A stretch of DNA of 64,000 nucleotides, from assembly GCA_964526375.1 (NCBI GenBank), contig CAZGLK010000001.1, forward strand, positions 4,811 to 68,810. Reading direction: 5' to 3'. Positions 3,093-25,968 of the stretch are shown here, one piece after another (positions within the stretch are counted from its first letter, which is position 1; every line of letters begins with the position of its first letter). A model generated the notes under the pieces. That model made no database searches, had not been told where the DNA came from, and was given only the letters and a program-made list of their open reading frames with translations. A program made the translations under genes and the position numbers. Origin of the DNA: an uncultured Candidatus Saccharibacteria bacterium (GTDB lineage Bacteria; Patescibacteriota; Minisyncoccia; JACQLN01).

Positions 3093-3911
3093 ATGTGGTT
3101 GTCTAAAAAATTTGTCTTGGGGGTTTTGGCGTTTATTTTAATCTTGATTTCTTATGCCGTTTGGCAGAAGGGGAACCAGTCGCCGCGGCTGGTGTTTTTG
3201 AATGTGGGGCAGGGCGATGCCATGCTGGCCAGTTTGCCCGGCGACATTCAAATTTTGGTGGACGCCGGGCCGTCGGGCGAGTTGGCTTCTAAACTTTCCG
3301 GCTATTTGCCTTTTTACGATCGCGATATTGAACTGGCAATTTTAACCCATCCCCACGCCGATCACCTGCGGGGTTTTTTGGAGATATTCAAAAATTACAA
3401 TGTTAAAAATTTTATCTTTTCGGGTGCCAATTATTCCAGCCGGGTTTATGCCGATTTTATGGAGGCGTTAAGAAAAGAGGGCAGCGGTGTTTACTTGGCC
3501 GGAAAAGGTGATGTTGTCAGTTATCGGGGCAGACCGATATTGAGAATTTTTTCTCCCGATAAGGTTGAACTTGGGCGTGATTTCAAAAAAATTCACGAGG
3601 CCAACATTGTTAGCCAGCTGGAACTGGGCCATAGAAAATTTTTGCTGATGGGCGATGCCGAAGAAGATCTTGAATTGCGGCTCATCGCGTCAAAGACGAT
3701 TCAAGACGTGGACATTCTAAAAGTCGGCCACCACGGTTCTAAAACCTCCACCTCGGAAAAATTGCTCCAAGCCGCTCGTCCCGAAGAAGCCATCATCTCC
3801 GTCGGCCGCAACTCCTACGGCCACCCCAACCCCGGTGTCCTGGATCGCCTGCATCAAACCGGAGCCAAAGTTTTTAGGACGGATCAGGTGGGGGATGTGG
3901 TTTATAGGTAG
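3093..3911 (+). CDS. comEC: ComEC C-terminal metallo-beta-lactamase domain protein (second half of split ComEC)
   Basis: N-terminal TM helix then MBL motifs LTHPHADHLRG and KVGHHGSKTS. Confidence 0.8.
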   Translation: MWLSKKFVLGVLAFILILISYAVWQKGNQSPRLVFLNVGQGDAMLASLPGDIQILVDAGPSGELASKLSGYLPFYDRDIELAILTHPHADHLRGFLEIFKNYNVKNFIFSGANYSSRVYADFMEALRKEGSGVYLAGKGDVVSYRGRPILRIFSPDKVELGRDFKKIHEANIVSQLELGHRKFLLMGDAEEDLELRLIASKTIQDVDILKVGHHGSKTSTSEKLLQAARPEEAIISVGRNSYGHPNPGVLDRLHQTGAKVFRTDQVGDVVYR

Positions 3912-7339: not shown

Positions 7340-7378
7340 TTGTTACGAATATACGAATATGAAATCAAGTGGTATAAT
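7340..7378 (+). promoter_or_regulatory. candidate nth promoter: tandem TACGAAT units plus an extended -10 (TGgTATAAT)
   Basis: ttacgaatatacgaatatgaaatcaagTGgTATAAT, with the -10 at 7373-7378, 20 nt upstream of the nth ATG; the 18-mer tacgaatatacgaatatg recurs at 12576-12593. Confidence 0.4.
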
Positions 7379-7397: not shown

Positions 7398-8111
7398 ATG
7401 TCTAATGTTGTGGCAATAAATCCAAAACTCAAAATCCAAAATCCTAAGCAAATCCCAATGACCAAAATCCAAAACAAATCCCGCGGTGAGGGTTTAGAAG
7501 AGAAAAAGTCTCGGGCGAGCAAGGTTATTGCCTACTTAAAGAAAAAATTTCCCGGTGCCAAAATAGCCCTGAAGTACGGCAACCCAATCCAATTATTAGT
7601 GTCGGTTGTATTATCGGCTCAATGCACCGACAAAAAAGTCAACGAGGTTACGGCGGAGCTGTTTAAGAAATACAAAACAGGGGCTGATTTTGCCGAAGCG
7701 AACACAAAAAAATTTGAGCGGGAAGTAAAGCCCTGCGGGTTTTACCGCAATAAGGCCAAAAATATTATCGCCGCTTGTAAAATCATCCAAGACAAATTCA
7801 AAGGCAAACTGCCGCGAACGATGGCCGAGATGTTAACTTTGCCGGGCGTGGCCCGCAAAACCGCCAATGTGGTTTTGGGCAATGCCTTTGGTGTGGTGGA
7901 GGGGATTGCGGTGGATACGCACATGATCCGCATCAATCAGAAGCTTGGTTTTTCTACCAGTACCGACCCCAAAAAAATTGAGAGGGATCTTATGCAGATT
8001 ATTCCTAAAAAGGATTGGTTTAAATACACCTATTTAATAATTGACTACGGCCGCCAGGTTTGCCCGGCGCGGCATAAAAAATGTGAGTGCGGGATTTATA
8101 AAATTAAATAG
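7398..8111 (+). CDS. nth: endonuclease III (DNA glycosylase/AP lyase)
   Basis: HhH-GPD motifs LVSVVLSAQCTD and LPGVARKTANVV, DTHMIRI, and a C-terminal [4Fe-4S] cluster C-x6-C-x2-C-x5-C. The start is chosen at MSNVV with an AGAGGG RBS; the ORF-track start at 7314 lies inside the promoter repeats. Confidence 0.85.
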   Translation: MSNVVAINPKLKIQNPKQIPMTKIQNKSRGEGLEEKKSRASKVIAYLKKKFPGAKIALKYGNPIQLLVSVVLSAQCTDKKVNEVTAELFKKYKTGADFAEANTKKFEREVKPCGFYRNKAKNIIAACKIIQDKFKGKLPRTMAEMLTLPGVARKTANVVLGNAFGVVEGIAVDTHMIRINQKLGFSTSTDPKKIERDLMQIIPKKDWFKYTYLIIDYGRQVCPARHKKCECGIYKIK

Positions 8112-8127
8112 GATTCGTCTGATAACG

Positions 8128-8168
8128 CGATCCGAAAAATCCGAATACATCCGAATGACCCGAATAGA
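8128..8168. repeat. four phased direct repeats of (A/C)TCCGAA(T)
   Basis: atccgaaaa atccgaatac atccgaatg acccgaatag with ~10-bp periodicity, immediately 5' of / overlapping the next ORF start. Confidence 0.4.
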
Positions 8169-9294
8169 ATTCAAAAAATTGATGGCCATATTTTTGGTTT
8201 GCGTTTTGCTATTTGGTCTGGTCGGATTTGTGGAAGCAGGCAAAATTAAGGACATTAAAAAGCGCAGCCGCGCGTCTGTTTTTATTCCTCCGCAAAGCCG
8301 CCAAGAGATAATCCGGCCGGCTCGCAACGCCGTGTTTTTTAGTCCGCTGGAAACAATCATCACTTCGGGTCCGGCGAACAACAATTTTGTTCAAAGCACC
8401 AGTGTTGAGTTTGTTTTGGACGGCTGGCAGATAGTGCCTTTTAAAAAAACCAATCGTTTTGAGGTTTGGCTGTTTGGCCTGGACGCTGGCTGGCGCGAGG
8501 CCGGGGAGAGAATAAGCTATAACCTGCCGCCCGGCAAGCGGCTTTATACTTTTATGGCCCGGGCCAAAAACGAAGCCGGCGAGACGGATCGCACCGCCGC
8601 GGTTAGAAATTTTTATACTTTCACCTCGCCCTATTACGGCAAGATTGACATTACTGCCGTGGACGGCCGCGGTTCTTTTGACAAGCCGCAGTATGAGCGC
8701 GTCACTTTGTACGCTCGTAATCTGGCCGGCCCCGTTAATGTTAGCGGCTGGCGGCTGGCTACCCGCCGCAAGAGTTTTTCGTTTGCAATCCCTTCGGCGG
8801 CGCGGTTGTTTGATCCCGCCAATCTTATCGGCATAGAGCCGATCAAACTCTCGTCTGGAGATTCGCTGAATGTTTTTGTGGGCAAGGCAAGCCCGGTGGG
8901 AAGCGGTTTTCAGGAGAATGGCTGTATGGGCTATTTGCGGTCGGGTTTTGAAGGTTACGATGCTCTGGCCGGCGGCGGCAGTTGCTCGGCTGTCAGCCCT
9001 TCCGTGTATAGCAGTTACAGCGTTGACTGCCGCCGGTTCTTAAACGGCTTGAGCGCTTGCGCCAGCGTGAACTTGGAGCCGTGGCAATTCGGGGCCGATC
9101 CCGCTTGCCGTGATTTTATAGTTAGAAATTACAATTACGCCGCTTGCGTGGAGCGCGGCAAAAACCAAGCCAACTTTTTTACCGGCCGCTGGAGAATTTA
9201 TCTGGGCCAGAGCGATGAAATTCTGGATGATTTGGATGACACGGTTTATTTGTACGACGGGCAGGGGTTGTTGGTGGACATATACAGTTATTAG
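8155..9294 (+). CDS. secreted protein with a lamin-tail-like (LTD) segment and a Cys-rich C-terminus
   Basis: N-terminal signal/TM (MAIFLVCVLLFGLVGFVEA); YERVTLYARNLAGPVNVSGWRL resembles LTD; the start could also be 8182. Confidence 0.55.
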   Translation: MTRIEFKKLMAIFLVCVLLFGLVGFVEAGKIKDIKKRSRASVFIPPQSRQEIIRPARNAVFFSPLETIITSGPANNNFVQSTSVEFVLDGWQIVPFKKTNRFEVWLFGLDAGWREAGERISYNLPPGKRLYTFMARAKNEAGETDRTAAVRNFYTFTSPYYGKIDITAVDGRGSFDKPQYERVTLYARNLAGPVNVSGWRLATRRKSFSFAIPSAARLFDPANLIGIEPIKLSSGDSLNVFVGKASPVGSGFQENGCMGYLRSGFEGYDALAGGGSCSAVSPSVYSSYSVDCRRFLNGLSACASVNLEPWQFGADPACRDFIVRNYNYAACVERGKNQANFFTGRWRIYLGQSDEILDDLDDTVYLYDGQGLLVDIYSY

Positions 9295-9872: not shown

Positions 9873-10151
9873 TTAGATGGACTCCAGCACTGGACCATCT
9901 AGAAAAGAACTCGCCGGGGTGTGTTCCAGAAACTGGTTACCGGCCCAGATTTGTATCTCCTCCGAGTCGTAGGTGTCGGGATCGTTCCGAATCTCATCCA
10001 CACAGGCTCGGAAGGTTGCCAGCCCTATAATACGAGGATGAAAACTCGGATCACCGATCAGGATTTTGGCAATAACCTGCGCCCGGGCCGGTGGTGGCCC
10101 GTCGCCATTCATTGCCTGCCAAGCCGCGTAAAACGGGTGGTTCTGGTCCAT
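9873..10151 (-). CDS. small hypothetical protein (92 aa), paralog of 9363-9557
   Basis: See its paralog; GC-rich; immediately downstream of murD on the same strand. Confidence 0.45.
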   Translation of the reverse strand: MDQNHPFYAAWQAMNGDGPPPARAQVIAKILIGDPSFHPRIIGLATFRACVDEIRNDPDTYDSEEIQIWAGNQFLEHTPASSFLDGPVLESI

Positions 10152-10153
10152 TT

Positions 10154-11530
10154 TTATTCTCCTTTCAAAATTGATTTTACGAGAAGATTAAATTGTTTTC
10201 CGCGGTCAAATTCGTTTTTGAACTTTTCAAACGAAGCCGCGGAGGGCGAAAAAAGAACCAGGGTCGATTTGACAATCTTGGCATACCTAATGGCGCTTGT
10301 CAATAAAGGGGGCAGGGTAGGGTAGAGTTGGGGCTGGGAGTTCTTAAAGTATTTCTGACGGTCAAGCGCCGCGATCATTTTGTTTGTGGCTGAACCTTCC
10401 AGCAAAAACAAGTTTTCTTTTTTTACGAATTTTTTTACGGCGGCGGCCCAGTCGTCAAAAATCAAATTTTTGTCCGTGCCGCCGGTTATCAGTATCAAGT
10501 TTCTGGCCTGTGCGTGGAATCGTTTTAAGGCGGCCATGGTAGCGTCGGGTGAAGTGGCCACCGCGTCGTTTACTATAGTCAGTCCACCCCCACGGTAGAT
10601 AATTTCCTGGCGGAATTTTATCTGGGGCAGGGTTTTAATGGCTTTCTTTATCGTTGCCCAGCTTAGGCCGGCTAGATTGGCGGCTAGCGCCGCGAGCATT
10701 AAGTTTTGCAGGTTATGGTTACCAAAGGGTGGCAAATGGGGAAAACGGGATGAAAAAGGGAAAGGCACGAATAAGATTTGGCCAGGCGGTTTTTGCTTAA
10801 GAAAAAATTTGGTCCATTTGTCTCCCCTGTTCAGAATCAAGAAATCATTCTTGGTTTGGTGCTTAAAGATGTTGGCCTTGGCTAGGGCGTAGTCGGTTAG
10901 GTTTTTATAACGATTTAGGTGGTCGGGTAAAATATTTGTTATCAGGGCTATATGGGGTTTTTTGTTCCAAGCTAAGCTTGGAACATTTAGGAGTTCAAGA
11001 TGCCAGCTGGAAAGTTCCACCACCACTGGGCTTTTGCCGTCCAATTTGTCCAACGCTTTTAGCATGGGGTTGTCCGAAGAATTTCCAGCCAGCGCGGCGT
11101 CCGGAAATTTTTGTTTCAGCAGGTGATAGGTCCAATTAGCCGTGGTGGTTTTGCCTCGGGTGCCGGTGACGCCGATGATTGGATTTTTGCAAAACCTAAA
11201 AAACAAACTGGCTTCGTTTTCCAATTGGGCGCCGCTCTGGCGCGCGGTTTTCAAATACGGGCTTTCTCGGGGCACGGCTGGGTTTACGACCACGATATCG
11301 TGAGACCGAAAGTCGGAGGCCAGATGTCGGCCTAAAACAAACCGGATTCGTTGGGCGGTTTGCCCTAAAGCTTTTATTGAGGCAGCCAGTTCGCGTCGCG
11401 GTTTTAGGTCAGTCACGGTAACTTTAGCTCCATGTTTAACCAGCCATTTGGTAGCGGCCACTCCCCCGCCCAAAAGCCCCAAACCCATCACCAGAACTTT
11501 TTTGTTTTTTAGGTAATCCTCCGGTGTCAT
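10154..11530 (-). CDS. murD: UDP-N-acetylmuramoylalanine--D-glutamate ligase
   Basis: KVLVMGLGLLGGG Rossmann N-terminus, Mur ligase P-loop IIGVTGTRGKTTT, about 458 aa. Confidence 0.9.
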   Translation of the reverse strand: MTPEDYLKNKKVLVMGLGLLGGGVAATKWLVKHGAKVTVTDLKPRRELAASIKALGQTAQRIRFVLGRHLASDFRSHDIVVVNPAVPRESPYLKTARQSGAQLENEASLFFRFCKNPIIGVTGTRGKTTTANWTYHLLKQKFPDAALAGNSSDNPMLKALDKLDGKSPVVVELSSWHLELLNVPSLAWNKKPHIALITNILPDHLNRYKNLTDYALAKANIFKHQTKNDFLILNRGDKWTKFFLKQKPPGQILFVPFPFSSRFPHLPPFGNHNLQNLMLAALAANLAGLSWATIKKAIKTLPQIKFRQEIIYRGGGLTIVNDAVATSPDATMAALKRFHAQARNLILITGGTDKNLIFDDWAAAVKKFVKKENLFLLEGSATNKMIAALDRQKYFKNSQPQLYPTLPPLLTSAIRYAKIVKSTLVLFSPSAASFEKFKNEFDRGKQFNLLVKSILKGE

Positions 11531-12548: not shown

Positions 12549-12619
12549 AGGGTAACGAATTTACGAATTGATTACGAATATACGAATATGTTTCCAAGGT
12601 CGACCTTTGGGAGTTTTCG

Positions 12620-15793: not shown

Positions 15794-16515
15794 ATCTCGT
15801 AAATAGTTTTTGCCGGGTTTCTTTATGCTGGTGTTTATCCACAACCCTGCCCTTGCTCTAGGTTGGCTTGTGGTATAATTGCTGTAAAGAGTTTTGACCT
15901 GTGTATAAACCATGTCTCTTGTGATGGGTTGACGGGTCTTGTTGACTTGTGAAATGCGCTAGCATATCATTTGGTCTAAGGAAGATCTATCAGCTCGCGT
16001 ACGGAGTGTGAGTGTTAAACCAAGCGGTTCGCAGGCAATATATGATTGTTTCCCAAACAAAGATATTTTGAAGGCCTTTTGCAACGGCTCTTTTGTGATT
16101 TACGAAATACGAATTGGTACGCCTGCCTGCGGTAGGCAGGAATCTACGAAAATTAAAGATGTGGACAGATGAGTTTGCGCGAGGATTGATTTGAGATTAG
16201 GACTCGTGTATGCTCATATGTTCATGTCCGGTGTAGTTTTCCAGCAAGCTCGCACCTTGACAATTGAATATCCTGTAAGTCTCGAATCTTGAATCTTGGA
16301 TCTTGGATCGTGAATATTGGATCATGGGGTGCGATTCAAGAAGTGCGAATAGTGATTTTAGTGGAGTGTCTTAAGTCGGGTCGGTCTCTTTAGGAGGAAG
16401 ACTTGACCTCCGATTGAATGCGATTATTAAAATTAGCAACTAACTTTGCGGGTTGATAGCAACCAAGGGATCGCAAGATACCTGGGCTGCCTTCAGCCAA
16501 AAACGAGAAAAACAA

Positions 16516-20472: not shown

Positions 20473-21279
20473 ATGTTCAAACTAAACAAAAAATTGTTGG
20501 TTGGCGTCGGTGTTGTTCTTGTTTTGGCATTGATAATTATAGCCGATCGTTTGCTGAAAAAACCGGCTCTGCCTCCTGACAATACGCCCACGGCATTGGA
20601 GCACAATAGCCAAGACATTGCTGGCAATGTGCCGAGAGAGTCAGTCCAAAAACCTTCCGGCAAATCTGGGCAGTTGAGCCAGATACCGCCTTACTCGGGC
20701 CGGCCTTTGAGCGAGGTACGTTTTGGGCAAGGTTTTTCCGCGCCCCAGGAAAGGATAAGCCAGCAGCGCCGCGATCTGGCTTTGTTGGCCGCGGTTTTAA
20801 CTGCCCAGCCGTTGGGGGCGGAAGGGGTTAATGATTGGATTGCTTTGGGATCAATTAAAAAATTTTTTAACGATTACGAAGGCGCCAAAGACGCCTGGGA
20901 GTATGCCGGTGTTTTATACCCCGGAAACGCCCTTTCTTTTGCCAATTTGGGACACCTTTATGGGTTTTATTTGGGTGATGCAGCCAAGGCAGAGAATAGT
21001 TTTAGACGCGCCATTGACAGCGATCCCTACCAGCCCAGCTATTATATTGGGCTGGCTGATTTGTACAGGCACGCCTATGCTTCCAAAAAATCGGAAGCCC
21101 CCAAGGTTTTGCTGGAAGGAATGAGTGTGATTGGAGACGCAAATTTAGTGCTGAGTTTGGCTACTTTTTATCGGGATGAGGGAGACAAGACCAATGCCGT
21201 AAAGTACTACGAGGAAGTTCTAAAAATCGCGCCGGATCAGGCGGGGGTGAGGGAAGAGATTGACAGATTAAGTAATTAA
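20473..21279 (+). CDS. membrane-anchored TPR-repeat protein
   Basis: N-terminal TM, then TPR-like repeats (…AENSFRRAIDSDPYQPSYYIGLADLY…, …AVKYYEEVLKIAPDQ…). Confidence 0.6.
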   Translation: MFKLNKKLLVGVGVVLVLALIIIADRLLKKPALPPDNTPTALEHNSQDIAGNVPRESVQKPSGKSGQLSQIPPYSGRPLSEVRFGQGFSAPQERISQQRRDLALLAAVLTAQPLGAEGVNDWIALGSIKKFFNDYEGAKDAWEYAGVLYPGNALSFANLGHLYGFYLGDAAKAENSFRRAIDSDPYQPSYYIGLADLYRHAYASKKSEAPKVLLEGMSVIGDANLVLSLATFYRDEGDKTNAVKYYEEVLKIAPDQAGVREEIDRLSN

Positions 21280-21386
21280 GTAACTGGTAATTACGTAATT
21301 ACTTAGTTACTAAATTACTGCATTTCCCTTGTTATTTTTACCTGCGGTTTTGGGTTATAGTGTTAGTGAATTAGGAATAAGGAATT

Positions 21387-23741
21387 ATGAATGATCCAAG
21401 GCCGCGGATTTTGATTTTTTCTCTGGCCTATTTCCCTTTAGTGGGTGGCGCCGAAATTGCCGTAAAAGAAATCGCCGATCGCCTCGGTGATGTTTTTGAT
21501 TTTGACCTGATAACTCTGGGATTTGGCAAAGACTGGCCCAAAGAAGAAAAAATAGGCCAGACGAGGGTTTTTCGGGTAAAAAAGGGCTTTATACTGCCCA
21601 AGCTGACCTTCGCCCTTAAGGGGGCAATTTTGGCCCACAAACTGCATTCCCGCAGCCAATATCAGCTAATCTGGCCGATTATGGCCGCCTATGCCGGCTT
21701 GGCCGGTTTGCTGTTTAAGTTTCTGCACCCCAAAATACCCCTGCTTTTGACTTTGCAGGAAGGCGACTCGGAATCACATATTTTAAAACGAGTGGGCGTA
21801 TTTTACCCTCTATGGCGGCTGATTTTTAAGAAAGCTGATTACATACAAGCCATCAGCAATTACTTGGCTGGTTTTGCCCGTAGGCATGGAGCGAGGTGTC
21901 CGGTAGAGATAGTTCCTAATGGTGTGAATCTTAAAAATTTCCAATTTCCAATTTCCAATTTCCAATTAAATTCCAAATTCCAAACAAGCTCCAAGTTCCA
22001 AGCTCCAAGCTCCAAGACGATAATCACTACCTCTCGGTTGGTTTATAAGAATGGAATTGATATTTTGATTAGGGCCGCGGCAGATCTAAAGTTCCAAGCT
22101 CCAAGCTCCAAGTTCCAAGTTCTCATTGTCGGCGATGGCCCCGATCGTTCCAAGTTAGAGAAACTTGCCGCCGATCTTGCTGTTTCCGATAGGATTAAAT
22201 TCGTTGGCCATATTGATCCCGACCTAATTCCCGGCTATCTTGCCCAAGCCGATATTTTTGTCCGTCCATCCCGCTCCGAGGGTTTGGGTAATTCGTTTTT
22301 AGAGGCCATGGCGGCCGGTCTTCCGATTGTTGGTACAGCTGTAGGCGGGATCACCGATTTTTTAAAAGATGGCGAGACTGGTTTGGTGTGCCAAGTTGAC
22401 GATTCTAACGATTTGGCCGAAAAAATTGTTAAAGTTTTGAGTGATGCCGAGCTGTCTCATAAATTGGCCGAGAATGGTAGGAGGTTGGTTGAAACTGGCT
22501 ATTCTTGGGATAAAATTGCGTCAAAAATGAAAGCAATCCTGAACTCCCTATACCCTAAACCCTATACCCTATACCCTATACCCTATACCCCAAACCCTCG
22601 AATCTTGTTGGCCACCGGCATTTATCCCCCCGAAATCGGCGGGCCGGCCACTTATGCCGTTTTGCTGGAAAAGGAATTGCCCAAGCGAGGTATCGGCGTA
22701 TCCGTGCTGCCATTTAGAGCCGTAAGAAATTGGCCAAAGGGTTTGCGCCACCTTCTTTATTTTATAAAGGCCACGCGTCTTTGCCGCGGGCACGATTTGA
22801 TTTTGGCGCAAGACACCATCAGCGTCGGCTTGCCTTCCTTGCTGGCGGCTAAACTATTAAGAAAAAGATTCTTGATCCGCGTGCCCGGGGATTATGTTTG
22901 GGAACAATCCGTTCAGCGCTTTGGCGTTAAAGATTCCATAGATGATTTTCAGCACCCGAATAGCGCGCCTTCGCCTGGCGGCTTCGGCAACACGAAAGCG
23001 CCCACCCGAATAAAAAGATATCCCTGGCGAGTAGAATTTTTAAGATCGGTTCAGAAATTTGTCGTTAACCACGCCGACACGGTTATTACCCCAAGTATTT
23101 ATTTCAGGGATTTGGTCCGCAGTTGGGTCAAGGACAAAAACAAAGTAATAACTATTTATAACGGTATTGATTTATCAATTTATGAACCAACCCTAAACCC
23201 TAAACCCTATACCCTAAAAACTATTGTTTCCGCTGGTCGGTTGGTGCCGTGGAAGGGCTTTGATATGGTTATAGAGATGATGCGGGATTTGCCGGAGTGG
23301 AGGTTGGTTATAATCGGCGATGGTCCGGAGCGGGAAAATCTCCAATTACTAATTACTAATTACCAATTACAAAACCGCGTTACGCTTACCGGCGCAATTC
23401 CAAGAGAAAAAGTGTTGGAATATTTGATGCAAGCTAAGATATTTGTTCTGAATACCTCCTTTGAAAGTTTTTCGTTTCAGATTGTGGAAGCCATGAGTTT
23501 GGGTCTGCCGGTTATTGCTTCTAATATAGGCAATCTTGCGGAGATTATAGAAAACGGCGTCGACGGAATGTTGGTGGAGCCGAATAACAAAGAGCAGTTT
23601 TTGGCCGCCGTGGCGAGACTGGAGCGAGACGAAGGTTTTAGGAAAAGCATTTCCGAACAGGCCCGGGTAAAAGCCCAAAACTTTTCTTTAGAAAGGACCC
23701 TGGCCGCCCTAGAGAATTTATTAAGAAACTTACTGCCATGA
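21387..23741 (+). CDS. tandem double GT4 glycosyltransferase (two complete GT-B GT4 modules fused)
   Basis: Module 1 has SRSEGLGNSFLEAMAAGLPIVGTAVGG; module 2 has SFESFSFQIVEAMSLGLPVIASNIG. Five in-frame simple-repeat linkers. Confidence 0.8.
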   Translation: MNDPRPRILIFSLAYFPLVGGAEIAVKEIADRLGDVFDFDLITLGFGKDWPKEEKIGQTRVFRVKKGFILPKLTFALKGAILAHKLHSRSQYQLIWPIMAAYAGLAGLLFKFLHPKIPLLLTLQEGDSESHILKRVGVFYPLWRLIFKKADYIQAISNYLAGFARRHGARCPVEIVPNGVNLKNFQFPISNFQLNSKFQTSSKFQAPSSKTIITTSRLVYKNGIDILIRAAADLKFQAPSSKFQVLIVGDGPDRSKLEKLAADLAVSDRIKFVGHIDPDLIPGYLAQADIFVRPSRSEGLGNSFLEAMAAGLPIVGTAVGGITDFLKDGETGLVCQVDDSNDLAEKIVKVLSDAELSHKLAENGRRLVETGYSWDKIASKMKAILNSLYPKPYTLYPIPYTPNPRILLATGIYPPEIGGPATYAVLLEKELPKRGIGVSVLPFRAVRNWPKGLRHLLYFIKATRLCRGHDLILAQDTISVGLPSLLAAKLLRKRFLIRVPGDYVWEQSVQRFGVKDSIDDFQHPNSAPSPGGFGNTKAPTRIKRYPWRVEFLRSVQKFVVNHADTVITPSIYFRDLVRSWVKDKNKVITIYNGIDLSIYEPTLNPKPYTLKTIVSAGRLVPWKGFDMVIEMMRDLPEWRLVIIGDGPERENLQLLITNYQLQNRVTLTGAIPREKVLEYLMQAKIFVLNTSFESFSFQIVEAMSLGLPVIASNIGNLAEIIENGVDGMLVEPNNKEQFLAAVARLERDEGFRKSISEQARVKAQNFSLERTLAALENLLRNLLP
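21934..22016. repeat. intragenic heptanucleotide SSR (AATTTCC x4, AAATTCC x2, CCAAG(C/T)T x5)
   Basis: aatttccaatttccaatttccaatttcc…ccaagttccaagctccaagctccaag; in frame (NFQFPISNFQLNSKFQTSSKFQAPSSK). Confidence 0.85.
22090..22124. repeat. intragenic heptanucleotide SSR (CCAAG(C/T)T x4)
   Basis: gttccaagctccaagctccaagttccaag, encoding KFQAPSSKFQ. Confidence 0.8.
22546..22597. repeat. intragenic heptanucleotide SSR (CCCTATA/CCCTAAA x7) at the junction of the two GT4 modules
   Basis: ccctataccctaaaccctataccctataccctataccccaaaccct, encoding LYPKPYTLYPIPYTPNP. Confidence 0.85.
23190..23218. repeat. intragenic heptanucleotide SSR (CCCTAAA/CCCTATA x4)
   Basis: ccctaaaccctaaaccctataccctaaaa. Confidence 0.8.
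23341..23375. repeat. intragenic heptanucleotide SSR (ATTAC(C/T)A x4)
   Basis: ccaattactaattactaattaccaattac, encoding LQLLITNYQLQN. Confidence 0.8.
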
Positions 23742-24895
23742 TCATTTTAATGCTTTCTACCGATGAAAATATCTTAAAAGAGGGTTCGGAATCCCAAAAA
23801 CGGATGATTGATTACGGAGGTTTGGTGGAAGAATTGCATATCATCGTTTTTACAAAACGAAATTACCAATTACCAATTACCAATTACCAACAAAATTCCA
23901 AATTCCAAATTTCAAAAAATGTTCGGATATACTCTACAAACACTTGGTTCAGACCGTTATATTTTTTCGATGCTTATCGGATTGGTCGAAGAGTTATTGA
24001 AAATTGTAAATTGAAAATTGAAAATTGGGTCGTGACGACCCAAGATCCTTTTGAAACTGGCCTGGTCGGTTGTTGGCTCAAGAAAAAATACAAATTGCCC
24101 CTGCAGATTCAAGTCCACGCCGATTTTTTAAGCCCGCATTTTTGGCGAGAATCATTGAAGAATAAAATCCGTGTTTTGGTGGCTCAACGGTTAGTAAAGA
24201 AAGCAGACGGTATCAGAGTAGTTTCTGAGCGAATTAAAAATTTGTTATTATCCCTATACCCTAAACCCTATACCCTAAACCCTATTTCCGTCCTGCCGAT
24301 TTTTGTGGATGTAGAAAAAATCAAAAACTCTCCAGTCAGAATTGATCTGCACCAAAAATATCCCGGCCGGTTCATAATTCTAATGGCTTCCCGCCTGACG
24401 CGGGAAAAAAACATCCCCATGGCTCTGGAAGCCATACGCGGATTAACGCGGAATAATACGCGGATTAACGCGGAAAAGATTTTATTACTTATTGTCGGTG
24501 ATGGTACAGAGCTTGAAAAGCTCAAACTACTCACTACTCACTACTCACTACAAACCGATGTCGTTTTTGAGCCCTGGACGGATGATTTGCCGTCGTATTA
24601 CAAAACCGCCGATCTGTTTCTTTTAACTTCCAACTACGAAGGCTATGGTCGGACTGTTGTGGAAGCCGCAGCCGCCGGTTTGCCGGTTTTGATGACCGAT
24701 GTCGGCGTGGCCATCGGCTCGGTTGTGCCTGTGGGCGACAGGGAAGTGTTGGCGGGTCATTTGGAATTGCTTGTCGGAAATCGGCTGGAGCGGGAGGGAA
24801 TTCTGGAGGGCCAAAGGAGAAATTTAGAATTTTATCGTTCAAAAGAGGATTACCTAAAACAGCTTAAACAATCATGGCTAAACTGCTTTTCATAA
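23738..24895 (+). CDS. GT4 glycosyltransferase
   Basis: …RLTREKNIPMALEA…EGYGRTVVEAAAAGLPVLMTDVG; ATGA overlap with the upstream gene; five in-frame SSR linkers. Confidence 0.8.
   Translation: MIILMLSTDENILKEGSESQKRMIDYGGLVEELHIIVFTKRNYQLPITNYQQNSKFQISKNVRIYSTNTWFRPLYFFDAYRIGRRVIENCKLKIENWVVTTQDPFETGLVGCWLKKKYKLPLQIQVHADFLSPHFWRESLKNKIRVLVAQRLVKKADGIRVVSERIKNLLLSLYPKPYTLNPISVLPIFVDVEKIKNSPVRIDLHQKYPGRFIILMASRLTREKNIPMALEAIRGLTRNNTRINAEKILLLIVGDGTELEKLKLLTTHYSLQTDVVFEPWTDDLPSYYKTADLFLLTSNYEGYGRTVVEAAAAGLPVLMTDVGVAIGSVVPVGDREVLAGHLELLVGNRLEREGILEGQRRNLEFYRSKEDYLKQLKQSWLNCFS
23861..23915. repeat. intragenic heptanucleotide SSR (AATTACC x4, AAATTCC x2)
   Basis: aattaccaattaccaattaccaattaccaacaaaattccaaattccaaatttc. 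Confidence 0.85.
23998..24026. repeat. intragenic heptanucleotide SSR (AAAATTG x4)
   Basis: gaaaattgtaaattgaaaattgaaaattg. Confidence 0.8.
24251..24285. repeat. intragenic heptanucleotide SSR (CCCTATA/CCCTAAA x5)
   Basis: tccctataccctaaaccctataccctaaaccctat, the same unit as in 22546-22597 of the upstream gene. Confidence 0.85.
24435..24474. repeat. intragenic repeat (ACGCGGATTAACGCGGA x2; CGCGGAT heptamer family)
   Basis: acgcggattaacgcggaataatacgcggattaacgcgg; related to 25060-25101 and 6080-6103. Confidence 0.8.
24524..24553. repeat. intragenic heptanucleotide SSR (ACTCACT x3-4)
   Basis: aactactcactactcactactcactac. Confidence 0.8.
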
Positions 24896-25968
24896 CCCAA
24901 AAAGTGGACAAAGACGACGACGTTTTGGGCGTGTATCACCGCTGGATAGAGGAATTGTCTAAAAAGGCGGATAAGATAAGTGTCGTTTGTCTTTATAAAG
25001 GCCGTTCCGAACTTCCCGGAAATGTGAGGGTCTTCTCTTTAGGCAAAGAAATCCTATCGGACGCGGATTCACGCGGATGGCGACGCGGATTCACGCGGAT
25101 CAAATATATTCTCCGGTTCTATAAATATATTTGGGGATTGAGAAAAGAATGCGACTCGGTTTTTGTCCACATGAATCCAATCTATATTGTTTTGGGGGGA
25201 TTATTTTGGAAAGCGCTCGGTAAGAAGGTATTGTTGTGGTACAACCATCCGCTGGGCAACTTAACGGCTAGATTCGGTATCGCTCTGGCTGATAAGGTGT
25301 TTTGCACATCCCGCTATTCTTTTTCGGCGAAATATAGAGGAACTGAAATTATGCCGGTGGGCGTAGATACATCTTTTTTTGAACCGATGCCGGAGGTGGT
25401 TAAAAAACGCAACAGAATTTTATACTTGGGCCGCATATCGCCCATCAAAAAAATAGGGGTTTTGATAGACGCGGTCAAGATGCTGGAGATTCAAGGCCTT
25501 GATTTTGAACTCTGGGTTGTTGGCTCACCCGCTTCGCCGCAGGACAAAAGGTACGAAATTGAGATAAAAAAAACAACGGCGGGATTGTTTTTAAAAGGCA
25601 AGGTTGTTTTTAAATCTGCTGTGCCTCACCACGAAGCGCCAAAAATTTATAATTCAGCCGGAGTCTTTGTTAACCTTACTCCCACTGGCAGTTTTGATAA
25701 AACTATTTTGGAAGCTATGGCTTGTGAAACACCAGTGTTGGTAGCCAATAGAACCATGGAACAATATTTACCAAAGAAATTGCAACAACTCTGCCTTTTT
25801 CAAGAAGACAACGCGGGTGAGTTGTGTGGCCGGCTGGAGCAGTTGTTTGAATTATCCTATGGAGAAAGGCAGAAGATGAGTCAAGAGCTACGGGATATAG
25901 TGACGAAACAACATAGCATGGATAGTTTAATAGAACGATTCTCGCATTTTTTTGAGAGTCGTTTGTAG
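24874..25968 (+). CDS. GT4 glycosyltransferase
   Basis: …GRISPIKKIGVLIDA…GSFDKTILEAMACETPVLVANRT…; contains the CGCGGAT repeat pair. Confidence 0.75.
   Translation: MAKLLFITQKVDKDDDVLGVYHRWIEELSKKADKISVVCLYKGRSELPGNVRVFSLGKEILSDADSRGWRRGFTRIKYILRFYKYIWGLRKECDSVFVHMNPIYIVLGGLFWKALGKKVLLWYNHPLGNLTARFGIALADKVFCTSRYSFSAKYRGTEIMPVGVDTSFFEPMPEVVKKRNRILYLGRISPIKKIGVLIDAVKMLEIQGLDFELWVVGSPASPQDKRYEIEIKKTTAGLFLKGKVVFKSAVPHHEAPKIYNSAGVFVNLTPTGSFDKTILEAMACETPVLVANRTMEQYLPKKLQQLCLFQEDNAGELCGRLEQLFELSYGERQKMSQELRDIVTKQHSMDSLIERFSHFFESRL
25060..25101. repeat. intragenic repeat (ACGCGGATTCACGCGGAT x2)
   Basis: gacgcggattcacgcggatggcgacgcggattcacgcggatc, encoding DADSRGWRRGFTRI. Confidence 0.8.

What the first reader, a model, noticed from the sequence alone, without database searches (positions are those of the whole stretch)
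21934..25101. In-frame heptanucleotide tandem repeats inserted at linker positions of three consecutive glycosyltransferase genes
Seen in sequence: at least eleven short tandem arrays sit inside the coding frames of the GT4 genes at 21387, 23738 and 24874, with units AATTTCC, CCAAGYT, CCCTAWA (a plant-telomere-like unit), ATTACYA, AAAATTG, ACTCACT and ACGCGGATT. Every array is a multiple of 3 nt in total, so it encodes peptide linkers (NFQFPISNFQ…, LYPKPYTLYPIPYTPNP, ITNYQLQN, LKIENW, LLTTHYSLQT, DADSRGWRRGFTRIK) at inter-domain loops without breaking the GT4 motifs. The same CCCTATACCCTAAACCCTAT block occurs in two different genes. A 7-nt unit is not a multiple of 3, so a gain or loss of one unit would frameshift the gene. 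Inference: this is either a set of slippage-prone contingency switches for surface-glycan phase variation, or selfish mini-repeats colonising coding DNA in frame, analogous to Rickettsia palindromic elements.
Basis: partly seen in the sequence, partly recalled or inferred. Interest (0 to 1): 0.8.

Follow-up and report, generated by a model that had tools for sequence, protein, structure and literature searches.

The report
In-frame 7-nt repeats in CPR genes
Three neighbouring sugar-transferase genes of an ultra-small groundwater (CPR) bacterium are studded with translated 7-base tandem repeats, which are a widespread and apparently undescribed feature of protein-coding genes in this bacterial radiation and do not behave as on/off switches.

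Summary
Eleven exact heptanucleotide arrays lie in frame within 2.6 kb of GT4 glycosyltransferase genes, against 0.009 expected by chance. Two further ACGCGGATT arrays belong to a different, hairpin-forming class.

The arrays are not peculiar to this genome. In 80 orthologous Parcubacteria loci, 131 of 142 heptamer arrays sit in GT4 genes. That is 48-fold denser than in other ORFs and 3-fold denser than outside ORFs. They recur at about six conserved positions of the fold, with some 80 different units.

They are translated. Units containing a stop codon never exceed 22 nt, and the A-rich strand is the coding strand in 102 of 122 arrays.

I found no support for phase variation. No array carries a frameshift, 29 near-identical alleles show no length polymorphism, and the arrays avoid the 5' end. 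Similar arrays also sit inside LeuRS, ArgRS, MiaA, TrmD, KsgA, PGK and RecJ genes on other contigs.

Against the closest relative, arrays keep their site and length but change unit, or are lineage-specific.

Best reading: these are translated coding microsatellites confined by selection to permissive loops, helix ends and linkers. How they are generated remains inferred.

The parts
21387..23741 (+). 784-aa double GT4 gene (A1+A2 fusion) carrying 6 heptamer arrays
   Evidence: The ORF is. Pfam finds two stretches each of Glyco_transf_4 and Glycos_transf_1. A1 and A2 are separate adjacent genes in most of the 80 related loci and fused in about 9.
23738..24895 (+). 385-aa GT4 gene (GT_B) carrying 5 heptamer arrays and 1 ACGCGGATT array
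   Evidence: The AF2 model has pLDDT 88.5 and superposes on BshA, MshA and HepE GT4 structures with TM about 0.7.
24874..25968 (+). 364-aa GT4 gene (GT_C) carrying only the ACGCGGATTC array
21936..21984 (+). AATTTCC / AAATTCC array at the A1 inter-domain linker, encoding NFQFPISNFQLNSKFQ
   Evidence: TRF and exact runs 21936-21967 and 21968-21984. It is absent from the closest relative, where the segment is about 15 codons shorter.
21985..22016 (+). CCAAGYT array, encoding SSKFQAPSSK
   Evidence: Absent from the closest relative.
22089..22122 (+). CCAAGYT / AAGTTCC array, encoding KFQAPSSKFQ, just before the VGDGP strand of A1
   Evidence: The relative has a non-repeat segment that is 6 codons longer.
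22546..22598 (+). CCCTATA x7.6 array forming the linker that joins the two GT4 halves (LYPKPYTLYPIPYTPNP)
   Evidence: In 5 of 9 A1-A2 fusions the linker is a heptamer or heptamer-like array. The closest relative is also fused but has only the proto-repeat CTAAACGCTAAACCC.
23189..23224 (+). AACCCTA array at the A2 inter-domain linker, encoding TLNPKPYTL
   Evidence: Absent from the closest relative.
23344..23370 (+). AATTACT array in A2, encoding LLITNYQLQ (helix before the VxLTG strand)
   Evidence: The relative has a non-repeat segment of the same length.
23861..23916 (+). AATTACC x4.3 followed by AAATTCC x3.4 (GT_B site 1, residues 42-60), encoding NYQLPITNYQQNSKFQ
   Evidence: It lies in a loop with pLDDT below 65. 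The relative has AAATCTC units at this site.
23996..24027 (+). AAAATTG array (GT_B site 2, residues 87-97), encoding CKLKIENW
   Evidence: It encodes a helix end. The relative has AAATTTG units at the same site.
24252..24285 (+). CCCTAWA array (GT_B site 3, inter-domain linker, residues 172-183), encoding LYPKPYTLNP
   Evidence: LYP(K/R/I)PYT occurs at this site in P0002, P0003, P0008 and P0023.
24434..24475 (+). ACGCGGATTA array (period 10-12/22; GT_B site 4), a separate hairpin-forming class, encoding RGLTRNNTRINAE
   Evidence: TRF. MFE is -14.3 with z = -4.2. Six of the 8 ACGCGGAT occurrences in the window lie in this array and the next one.
24526..24551 (+). ACTACTC x3.7 array (GT_B site 5, residues 263-272, helix), encoding LLTTHYSLQ
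   Evidence: The relative has (ACTTTTA)2(ACTATCA)2 in the same phase and at the same length. CTACTCG occupies this site in L007, L013, L014 and L030.
25061..25100 (+). ACGCGGATTC array (period 10) in GT_C, encoding DADSRGWRRGFTRI
   Evidence: TRF. MFE is -17.6 with z = -2.6.
7418..7444 (+). Degenerate AAATCCA array at the N-terminus of an HhH-GPD DNA-glycosylase gene, encoding INPKLKIQNPK
   Evidence: TRF, sequence and Pfam. It shows that arrays are not strictly limited to GT4 genes in this genome.
16280..16323 (+). TCTTGAA/TCTTGGA heptamer array upstream of the 1294-aa PG_binding_1 protein (non-coding)
   Evidence: TRF, exact run 16293-16309 and sequence.

Best explanation
The heptamer tracts are translated, in-frame coding microsatellites: long simple-sequence repeats with a 7-nt unit. 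They occupy structurally permissive segments of the GT-B fold, namely surface loops, helix ends, the inter-domain linker and the linker between fused genes. They are a clade-wide property of Patescibacteria (CPR) coding sequences and are not specific to this locus.

Shown:
- The arrays are real and far beyond chance.
- They are read by the ribosome, as the stop-codon cap and the A-rich hydrophilic coding orientation indicate.
- They recur at the same fold positions across orthologs and paralogs.
- They turn over faster than the rest of the gene, often without changing segment length.
- They are stable within species-level clusters.
- They are never found frameshifted.
- They also occur in essential genes.

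Inferred:
- The tracts are created and re-homogenised by a local repeat-generating mutation process with a 7-nt register. This would be slipped or misaligned templated synthesis, which can overwrite neighbouring sequence with copies of a unit.
- Purifying selection then removes everything that breaks the frame, introduces a stop, puts hydrophobic T-rich codons on the surface, or hits a constrained part of the fold.
- The visible pattern is therefore a selection filter acting on a mutational bias. The arrays themselves are near-neutral loop and linker filler, which now and then fuses adjacent genes.

They are not ON/OFF switches.
For: Non-randomness:
- The window has 11 arrays against 0.009 expected. 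Only period 7 is enriched, both in the window and in 1.16 Mb of related loci, with 130 runs at period 7 against 28, 12, 4 and 1 at periods 6, 8, 9 and 10.

Translation constraint:
- Units with a stop in one phase reach 21 nt or more in 5 of 50 cases and never exceed 22 nt. Stop-free units reach 21 nt or more in 44 of 81 cases and run to 34 nt (Fisher p = 2.5e-7).
- A exceeds T on the coding strand in 102 arrays against 20 (p = 2e-14). G is 11% in arrays against 23% in the host genes.

Permissive sites:
- Arrays cluster at profile positions of about 40-50, 80-90, 160-200 and 220-260.
- On the AF2 model (pLDDT 88.5) they fall in loops with local pLDDT minima or at helix ends, and the fold is still a standard GT4.
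- GC-rich palindromic mini-inserts use the same sites.

Clade-wide and not GT4-only:
- 81 of 348 GT4 ORFs in 81 loci carry arrays, and all GT4 subfamilies are affected.
- An unbiased metagenome scan found arrays in frame in LeuRS, ArgRS, MiaA, TrmD, KsgA, PGK, RecJ and a GT2.
- MiaA orthologs from Microgenomates have two hot spots that are filled in nearly every ortholog.

Turnover without length change:
-. Against the closest relative, array columns are 41% identical and the rest of the cassette is 61% identical.

No switching:
-.

Background:
- Heptamers are the commonest long-SSR unit in many bacterial genomes. A polymerase-footprint explanation has been proposed (Mrazek 2007, as summarised in PMC4679880).
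Against: - The 48-fold enrichment in GT4 genes over other ORFs, and the 3-fold excess over non-ORF DNA (Poisson p = 0.0017), is more than a pure tolerance model predicts, unless intergenic DNA in these compact genomes is itself strongly constrained.
- Some arrays are conserved at the nucleotide level across lineages whose flanks are only 60-70% identical, for example CTACTCG at site 5 in L013, L014 and L030. This hints at selection or ongoing homogenisation acting on the DNA itself.
- The mutational mechanism and the reason for a period of 7 are not demonstrated.
- MAG consensus sequences cannot reveal minority length variants.
- The 'other ORF' control is limited to the 10-kb neighbourhoods of the cassette.
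Confidence: 0.6

Rival explanations
1. Contingency loci. Slippage by one 7-nt unit frameshifts the GT4 genes and switches surface-glycan synthesis on and off, as in the E. coli K1 neuO heptanucleotide VNTR or the Haemophilus and Neisseria LOS glycosyltransferases.
For: The unit length is not a multiple of 3. The hosts are glycosyltransferases in a cell-envelope polysaccharide cluster, which is the classic gene class for phase variation. The neuO precedent is a heptanucleotide VNTR inside a coding region that is ON only when the copy number is a multiple of three (PMC3046976). Some tracts are perfect and 4-7 units long.
Against: - None of 131 arrays is frameshifted in 81 loci. The only frameshifted GT4 is at an A10 run.
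- The three split alleles in 90%-identity clusters are due to poly-A runs or a nonsense substitution.
- There is no length polymorphism in 29 distinct alleles of five clusters that carry arrays.
- Tracts are short, number up to 7 per gene, lie mid-gene and avoid the first 10%.
- The cassette is conserved and syntenic across the clade, so it is not a hypervariable locus.
- The same arrays occur in essential genes, where an OFF state would be lethal.
Confidence: 0.07
2. Selfish mobile mini-elements. Short repeat cassettes spread by transposition or non-allelic gene conversion and survive only where they land in frame in permissive loops, analogous to Rickettsia palindromic elements.
For: - The same unit recurs at several sites of one genome. 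In the window, CCCTAWA occurs at 3 sites, and AATTACY, AAWTTCC and CCAAGYT at 2 each.
- Across loci, same-genome pairs at different sites share a unit (distance 1 or less) in 11% of cases, against 7% in shuffles (8 of 500 shuffles reach this).
- Genuinely palindromic GC-rich mini-inserts, and one PDDEXK_3 module, occupy the same sites in orthologs.
- The ACGCGGATT arrays are structured and dispersed.
Against: - Heptamer arrays have no hairpin potential (MFE about 0, z about 0), no termini and no consensus (75-80 units).
- The same site carries related but different units in different lineages, at constant length and phase. This fits in-place turnover.
- Same-site sharing between genomes (13%) is as strong as within-genome sharing.
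Confidence: 0.12
3. The arrays are positively selected functional modules of GT4 genes. They could act at the DNA level as homology patches that promote recombination, fusion or shuffling among tandem GT4 paralogs, or as binding sites. They could also act at the protein level as heptad peptides that tune activity, as the NeuO poly-psi heptads do.
For: - GT4 density exceeds both other ORFs (48-fold) and non-ORF DNA (3-fold).
- Nucleotide-level conservation of the CTACTCG array exceeds that of its flanks.
- Arrays sit at the junctions of 5 of 9 A1-A2 gene fusions, and identical blocks occur at equivalent positions of different paralogs.
- NeuO activity scales with heptad number.
Against: - No chimeric or recombinant GT4 was observed.
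- Unit sequences, and hence the peptides, are extremely diverse at a given site.
- Arrays occur in unrelated housekeeping enzymes.
- Many orthologs lack arrays at a given site, at the same segment length.
Confidence: 0.15
4. Assembly or sequencing artefact in a metagenome-assembled genome.
For: The source is a short-read MAG, and tandem repeats can be mis-assembled.
Against: The tracts are 17-53 nt, which I expect to be shorter than typical short-read lengths (the read length of this assembly was not checked). All ORFs stay open. The same phenomenon appears in dozens of independent assemblies from different studies and pipelines, and it obeys stop-codon and orientation constraints.
Confidence: 0.01

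Closest known systems
E. coli K1 neuO poly-psi motif (heptanucleotide AAGACTC VNTR in the coding region)
   Same: A 7-nt unit is translated in all three phases, so that three units encode one heptad peptide. The host enzyme modifies a surface glycan (PMC3046976).
   Different: neuO has a single array placed 2 nt after the start codon, with 2-93 copies, frequent +/-1 unit slippage and abundant OFF alleles. Here there are up to 7 short arrays (2.4-7.6 units) per gene, located mid-gene, with many different units. No OFF alleles and no length polymorphism were seen.
SSR contingency loci of Haemophilus, Neisseria and Campylobacter glycosyltransferases
   Same: Non-triplet SSRs lie inside glycosyltransferase coding regions.
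   Different: Those tracts are long, usually near the 5' end, polymorphic between isolates and confined to dispensable surface genes. None of these properties holds here, and essential genes are also hosts.
Long SSRs with heptanucleotide units in prokaryotic genomes (Mrazek et al. 2007), including GGGNATC of Xanthomonas and Nostoc and TAACTGA of Beggiatoaceae and cyanobacteria
   Same: Tandem direct repeats with a strong preference for a 7-nt period, with several arrays per genome (PMC4692102 and PMC4679880).
   Different: [quoted passage not shown] Here there are about 80 units, 92% of arrays (131 of 142) lie inside ORFs of one enzyme family, and the sites are conserved across orthologs.
Rickettsia palindromic elements (RPE)
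   Same: Small repeated DNA is tolerated in frame at permissive surface sites of unrelated, even essential, proteins.
   Different: From memory, RPEs are roughly 100-150 bp hairpin-forming elements with family consensus sequences. The heptamer arrays are unstructured direct repeats without a consensus. The GC-rich palindromic mini-inserts and the ACGCGGATT arrays found at the same sites are the better RPE analogues.
Borg amino-acid tandem repeats (aaTRs)
   Same: Perfect nucleotide tandem repeats inside ORFs that evolve fast and create low-complexity or disordered protein segments (PMC9879509).
   Different: All Borg TRs in ORFs have unit lengths divisible by three. Here the unit is 7 nt, so each unit is read in a different frame and single-unit changes are forbidden.

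Membership tests
SSR contingency (phase-variation) locus | An SSR with a unit that is not a multiple of 3, inside or just upstream of a coding region | tested here: met
   7-nt units lie inside three GT4 ORFs.
SSR contingency (phase-variation) locus | Frameshifted (OFF) alleles at the tract among related genomes | tested here: not met
   None of 131 arrays is frameshifted in 81 loci. The only frameshift is at an A10 run. Split alleles in clusters are due to poly-A runs or a nonsense substitution.
SSR contingency (phase-variation) locus | Copy-number polymorphism between closely related strains or within a population | tested here: inconclusive
   There is no length variation in 29 distinct alleles of five 90%-identity clusters that carry arrays. 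Read-level heterogeneity could not be examined.
SSR contingency (phase-variation) locus | A single long tract, typically near the 5' end of a dispensable surface-related gene | tested here: not met
   There are up to 7 tracts per gene, each of 2.4-7.6 units, at 10-80% of ORF length, with only 1 in the first 10%. Hosts include LeuRS, ArgRS, MiaA and TrmD.
neuO-type poly-psi heptanucleotide VNTR | One heptanucleotide unit repeated immediately after the start codon, with an encoded heptad number that varies and tunes activity | tested here: not met
   The arrays are internal, use many units and have fixed lengths. An effect on activity is not testable here.
Long SSR (LSSR), heptanucleotide class | Head-to-tail direct repeats of a 5-11 nt unit, at least 2-3 copies, with period 7 predominant in the genome | tested here: met
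Long SSR (LSSR), heptanucleotide class | Predominantly intergenic location and under-representation in coding DNA, as in the described cases | tested here: not met
   131 of 142 arrays lie inside GT4 ORFs, at 0.316 per kb against 0.11 per kb outside ORFs.
In-frame palindromic mobile elements (RPE-like) | Hairpin-forming (palindromic) sequence | tested here: not met
   The heptamer arrays have MFE about 0 and z about 0. The feature is met only by the two ACGCGGATT arrays (z = -4.2 and -2.6) and by the GC-rich inserts in orthologs (z = -4.5 and -6.5).
In-frame palindromic mobile elements (RPE-like) | Dispersed copies sharing a family consensus | tested here: not met
   There are 80 strand-specific (75 strand-insensitive) units among 131 arrays. 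Within-genome unit sharing is only 11% against 7% by chance.
In-frame palindromic mobile elements (RPE-like) | Insertion in frame at permissive sites of unrelated proteins | tested here: met
GT4 (GT-B fold) glycosyltransferase (host genes) | An N-terminal Glyco_transf_4 domain plus a C-terminal Glycos_transf_1 domain, with a GT-B fold | tested here: met
   Pfam E-values range from 1e-18 to 1e-86. The AF2 model matches BshA, MshA and HepE with TM about 0.7.

The most novel reading that the evidence does not exclude
CPR bacteria may have an active process with a 7-nt register that writes and re-homogenises periodic tracts inside coding sequences without changing their length. Candidates are a peculiarity of the replisome or of repair, or a dedicated enzyme. 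Under this reading some tracts are maintained at the DNA level because, with each unit read in all three frames, homogenisation leaves no silent sites. This would be a distinct evolutionary regime for protein loops. The GT4 cassette would be a preferred target, possibly used to fuse and reshuffle neighbouring glycosyltransferases.
Probability: 0.12. Interest if true: 0.85.

Novelty: new variant of a known kind. Interest (0 to 1): 0.6.

Why it matters
Non-triplet repeats inside genes are normally either purged or used as on/off switches. Here a large bacterial radiation tolerates them, translated, at conserved positions of many proteins, including essential ones.

If this holds genome-wide, several things follow:
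- It would be a lineage-specific mutational signature that continually rewrites protein loops and linkers, and occasionally fuses genes.
- It would explain some of the odd low-complexity segments and length variation of CPR proteins that complicate homology detection and annotation.
- It offers a natural system for asking why slippage favours a 7-nt register.
- It warns against reading every non-triplet SSR in a glycosyltransferase as a phase-variation switch.

Tried and rejected
1. A link between arrays and a mobile PDDEXK_3 (PF13366) module. Two CTACTCG arrays 516 nt apart in L014 looked like the flanks of an insertion. They are simply sites 2 and 5 of an ordinary 388-aa gene. The module inserted in P0009 is not inside any GT4 gene in the 80 loci.

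2. Candidate OFF alleles in 90%-identity clusters (pairs of 123+258, 240+157 and 166+202 aa). None is caused by a heptamer array.

3. Pure vertical inheritance against pure within-genome spread of units. Both signals are only about twice the baseline, so neither model wins.

4. GT4 exclusivity. The local data suggested it, but the unbiased metagenome scan found only 2 of 80 loci with GT4 hosts and many housekeeping hosts. That scan covers all organisms and one pre-selected unit class, so it does not contradict the local enrichment.

5. Literature searches for a prior description combining CPR with heptamer or SSR terms found nothing relevant.

6. One Pfam call failed because of a mis-specified DNA reference and was repeated.

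7. The plant-telomere identity of CCCTAAA. With about 80 different units in use I treat it as coincidence. No other telomere-like feature was seen.

Full report
SOURCE AND CONTEXT

The window (GC 45.6%) matches a contig of the groundwater MAG GCA_016204085.1, annotated as 'Parcubacteria group bacterium'. The finding lies at the start of a cell-envelope polysaccharide cluster. Its order is:
- a 1294-aa PG_binding_1 protein;
- a TPR protein;
- a 784-aa double GT4 (21387-23741);
- a 385-aa GT4 (23738-24895);
- a 364-aa GT4 (24874-25968);
- a Wzx-like flippase, a CDP-glycerol glycerophosphotransferase and further GT4 genes.

CHECK OF THE OBSERVATION

TRF and an exact-run scan confirm the arrays at the stated coordinates, with the stated units. 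Exact period-7 runs of at least 17 nt number 12 in the window, and 11 of them fall within 21936-24551. Periods 4-12 other than 7 give 0-4 runs each. One thousand dinucleotide-preserving shuffles of 21387-25968 give a mean of 0.009 runs, and codon shuffles of the three genes give 0.007, against 11 observed. The block CCCTATACCCTAAACCCTAT is present in two genes.

Four corrections are needed:
- The repeat tracts themselves are 17-32 nt, and only 2 of 11 are multiples of 3.
- The ACGCGGATT arrays have a period of 10-12/22. They form hairpins (z = -4.2 and -2.6), whereas all heptamer arrays are unstructured with MFE about 0. They are a separate class.
- The arrays are not only at linkers.
- Most arrays are not net insertions (details below).

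THE PHENOMENON IS CLADE-WIDE

The 385-aa protein (GT_B) has thousands of CPR homologs. In an alignment with 26 of them at 53-69% identity, the homologs carry heptamer-style peptides at the same alignment positions, often from other units. Examples are NFQFPISNFQ, KSEILNSKSE, QTTNYKLQT and CKLKIENS.

A scan of one genome per species, using the non-repeat motifs LxSYYKTAD and TSNYEGYG, returned 80 loci from Harrison-, Azam-, Campbell-, Yanofsky-, Moran-, Portnoy-, Niyogi-, Sung-, Komeili- and Vogelbacteria and unnamed Paceibacterota. The results in these 1.16 Mb are:
- Period 7 gives 130 exact runs, against 28, 12, 4 and 1 for periods 6, 8, 9 and 10.
- Arrays recur at offsets of about 120, 250-290, 460-515 and 720-795 nt of the ortholog.
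- I classified every array by its enclosing stop-to-stop ORF and compared that ORF with six window GT4 proteins. Of 142 arrays, 131 lie in GT4-like ORFs (0.316 per kb), 5 in all other ORFs (0.0066 per kb over 758 kb) and 6 outside ORFs (0.11 per kb).
- 81 of 348 GT4 ORFs carry arrays, up to 7 per ORF, with 80 distinct units.
- All GT4 subfamilies present are affected, at 0.14-0.64 per kb.
- On a profile of the family, arrays cluster at positions of about 40-50, 80-90, 160-200 and 220-260, plus the termini.

THE ARRAYS ARE TRANSLATED AND FILTERED BY SELECTION

A heptamer array of three or more units is read in all three phases.
- Units that contain a stop codon in one phase reach 21 nt or more in only 5 of 50 cases and never exceed 22 nt. 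Stop-free units do so in 44 of 81 cases and reach 34 nt (Fisher p = 2.5e-7).
- The coding strand of the arrays is A-rich and G-poor (A 44%, G 11%), against A 31% and G 23% in the host genes. A exceeds T on the coding strand in 102 arrays against 20 (p = 2e-14). This orientation gives K/N/Q/I/T/S-rich peptides and few stops.

An AlphaFold2 model of the window's GT_B (pLDDT 88.5, pTM 0.85) places the arrays as follows:
- array 1 (residues 42-60) in a loop with pLDDT below 65;
- array 3 (172-183) in the inter-domain loop;
- array 4 (233-246) at a helix end plus loop;
- arrays 2 (87-97) and 5 (263-272) in the terminal turns of helices.

The model still superposes on the solved GT4 enzymes BshA, MshA and HepE with TM about 0.7.

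TEST OF THE PHASE-VARIATION IDEA

1. A tblastn search for adjacent GT4 matches in different frames found one frameshift in 81 loci. It is at an A10 run in L012, and none is at a heptamer array.
2. About 80 members of ten 90%-identity clusters were inspected. The three split alleles are caused by poly-A runs (P0170/P0172 and P0176/P0177) or by a GAA>TAA substitution in a 3.9x-coverage contig (P0171/P0169).
3. The only internal indel is a non-heptamer 7-aa segment.
4. Heptad-periodic peptides encoded by arrays are constant in length in 29 distinct full-length alleles of five clusters.
5. Arrays lie at 10-80% of ORF length, peak at 60-70%, and only 1 lies in the first 10%.
6. The A1-A2-B-(C) cassette is syntenic across the clade, so it is not a hypervariable locus.

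ARRAYS ALSO OCCUR OUTSIDE GT4 GENES

In this window a degenerate AAATCCA array opens the HhH-GPD glycosylase gene. Only 2 of the 80 analysed had GT4 hosts.

On low-GC contigs the arrays lie in frame inside LeuRS, MiaA, KsgA, TrmD, PGK, ArgRS, RecJ and a GT2, all confirmed by Pfam. By eye they also lie inside UvrC, PheT, a Mur ligase and Sua5-TsaE. Contigs with one array usually have several more with other units, while periods 5, 6, 8 and 9 remain rare.

The named relatives of the array-bearing MiaA are Microgenomates, Pacebacteria and Patescibacteria. Its orthologs have two hot spots that are filled with heptamer peptides in nearly every sequence. The taxonomy of the other housekeeping hosts was not verified. 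Because aminoacyl-tRNA synthetases are essential (established knowledge), ON/OFF switching cannot be the general role of such arrays.

DYNAMICS

The closest relative is L204 (GCA_900218215.1), with 51-66% aa identity and full synteny, including a fused 773-aa GT4. It was compared with the window site by site.

In GT_B the relative has arrays at the same three sites and at the same length, but with different units:
- site 1: AAATCTC in the relative against AATTACC/AAATTCC in the window;
- site 2: AAATTTG against AAAATTG;
- site 5: (ACTTTTA)2(ACTATCA)2 against (ACTACTC)3.7, in the same phase.

In the fused A1/A2 gene the relative has no arrays at the window's sites. One site is about 15 codons longer in the window, one is 6 codons shorter, and one has equal length. 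The fusion linker of the relative has only the proto-repeat CTAAACGCTAAACCC, so the fusion predates the CCCTATA expansion. Array columns are 41% identical and the rest of the cassette is 61% identical.

Other comparisons agree:
- Among L031, L033 and L043 (82-86% nt identity), arrays differ from a non-repeat version by clustered substitutions without indels.
- Across 81 GT_B orthologs, segment length with and without an exact array is 30 against 25 residues at site 1 and 23 against 20 at site 2. It is equal at sites 3, 4 and 5.
- Conversely, the CTACTCG array at site 5 is almost identical in three Azambacteria lineages whose flanks are only 60-70% identical.
- Units are shared about twice as often as chance, both between different sites of one genome and between the same site in different genomes.

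GENE FUSIONS AND OTHER INSERTS

A1 and A2 are separate genes in most loci but fused in 9, including the window. In 5 of these 9 the linker is a heptamer or heptamer-like array. B+C, B+A1 and A2+B fusions also occur.

The same permissive sites also host GC-rich palindromic mini-inserts, for example in L041, L037, L065 and L008 (z = -4.5 and -6.5 for the two that were folded). One homolog, P0009, has a PDDEXK_3 module at site 4. Different kinds of small DNA therefore accumulate at the same positions. This argues that the positions are defined by what the protein tolerates, not by targeting.

INTERPRETATION

The best-supported reading is that the heptamer tracts are translated coding microsatellites. 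A mutational process with a 7-nt register creates and re-homogenises them, often overwriting neighbouring sequence without changing its length. Selection on frame, stops, residue type and fold position determines where they can persist.

The mutational mechanism is inferred and not shown. The general preference of bacterial long SSRs for 7-nt units, and a polymerase-footprint hypothesis for it, are in the literature (Mrazek 2007, as cited in PMC4679880 and PMC4692102).

Two observations remain unexplained by tolerance alone:
- the excess of GT4 density over non-ORF DNA (Poisson p = 0.0017);
- the nucleotide-level conservation of some arrays.

One possible account of the second point is that homogenisation exposes every unit position to all three codon positions, which would leave no silent sites. 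This is speculation.

COMPARISON WITH KNOWN SYSTEMS AND NOVELTY

- neuO shares the 7-nt unit and the heptad coding. It differs in having a single, long, 5'-terminal, highly polymorphic tract.
- The described bacterial heptamer repeats (GGGNATC and TAACTGA) use a single unit and are intergenic.
- Borg repeats in ORFs have units divisible by three.
- RPE-like elements are palindromic (from memory). Only the ACGCGGATT arrays and the GC-rich inserts resemble them.

Searches of the held library found no description of in-frame heptamer arrays in CPR genes. I rate this as a new variant of a known kind (long SSRs) and of moderate-to-high interest.

CAVEATS

- MAG consensus sequences hide minority length variants.
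- ORFs were defined stop-to-stop.
- The non-GT4 control is restricted to the neighbourhoods of the cassette.
- The family profile was built from array-bearing sequences.

Noticed in passing
Homolog P0009 (537 aa), no window coordinates; equivalent to window 24434-24475: A PDDEXK_3 (PF13366) nuclease-like module is inserted in frame at GT_B site 4. It is flanked by the direct repeat QKSAKSVLL / QSAKSVLLL. Its left junction encodes DHAD, which could be encoded by GATCACGCGGAT (a back-translation; the DNA was not read), the motif of the window's ACGCGGATT arrays. The ACGCGGATT arrays might be remnants of such an element.
   Followed up: partly
L041 about 9900-10000, L037 about 15950-16150, L065 about 10740-10900, L008 about 280-330, L002 about 8240-8260; also MiaA homologs P0224, P0196, P0212, P0235: GC-rich palindromic mini-elements are inserted in frame at the same permissive sites as the heptamer arrays. 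They encode peptides such as CHSALDAESRNLDSRFRGNDR, LEIASVASLPRND and LPAGR(Q/H). Folding gives z = -4.5 and -6.5 for the two tested. These are the true RPE-like analogues.
   Followed up: partly
L012 about 3318-3334; protein pairs P0176/P0177 and P0170/P0172: The only frameshifted or split GT4 alleles found are at poly-A homopolymer runs. These could be sequencing errors or the real hypermutable sites of these genes.
   Followed up: partly
window 21267-21319 and 21363-21392: An 8-nt-period array (ATTAMGTA) lies at the end of the TPR gene and in the intergenic spacer. A period-7 AGGAATW array overlaps the ribosome-binding region and start codon of the 784-aa GT4 gene.
   Followed up: no
window 12555-12589, 7344-7360 and 8130-8166: Short arrays related to ACGAATAT / TACGAATA / ATCCGAATAA (periods 8-10) lie between tRNA-His and tRNA-Arg and around the HhH-GPD gene. 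This is another small repeat family in the left third of the window.
   Followed up: no
L028 9995-12208, L044 9896-12154, L010 10504-12747, L011 10444-12780, L048 6213-8459, L038 5874-8072: Adjacent GT4 genes of the cassette are repeatedly fused into single ORFs in different combinations (B+C, B+A1 and A2+B), mostly with short linkers that are not arrays.
   Followed up: partly
window about 7390 and about 49336: The NCBI contig that carries the exact GT_B protein is 41,947 nt and would span window positions of about 7390-49336. Another record of the same protein sits on a 77,981-nt contig. The window therefore comes from a longer version of the assembly, or spans contig joins.
   Followed up: no
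L013, site 5 of GT_B (alignment columns 895-950): Within the CTACTCG array a T>C variant is present in two adjacent units (CTACTCG CTACTCG CCACTCG CCACT). In L204 the array is (ACTTTTA)2(ACTATCA)2. Variants occurring as adjacent pairs suggest unit-to-unit copying inside arrays.
   Followed up: partly
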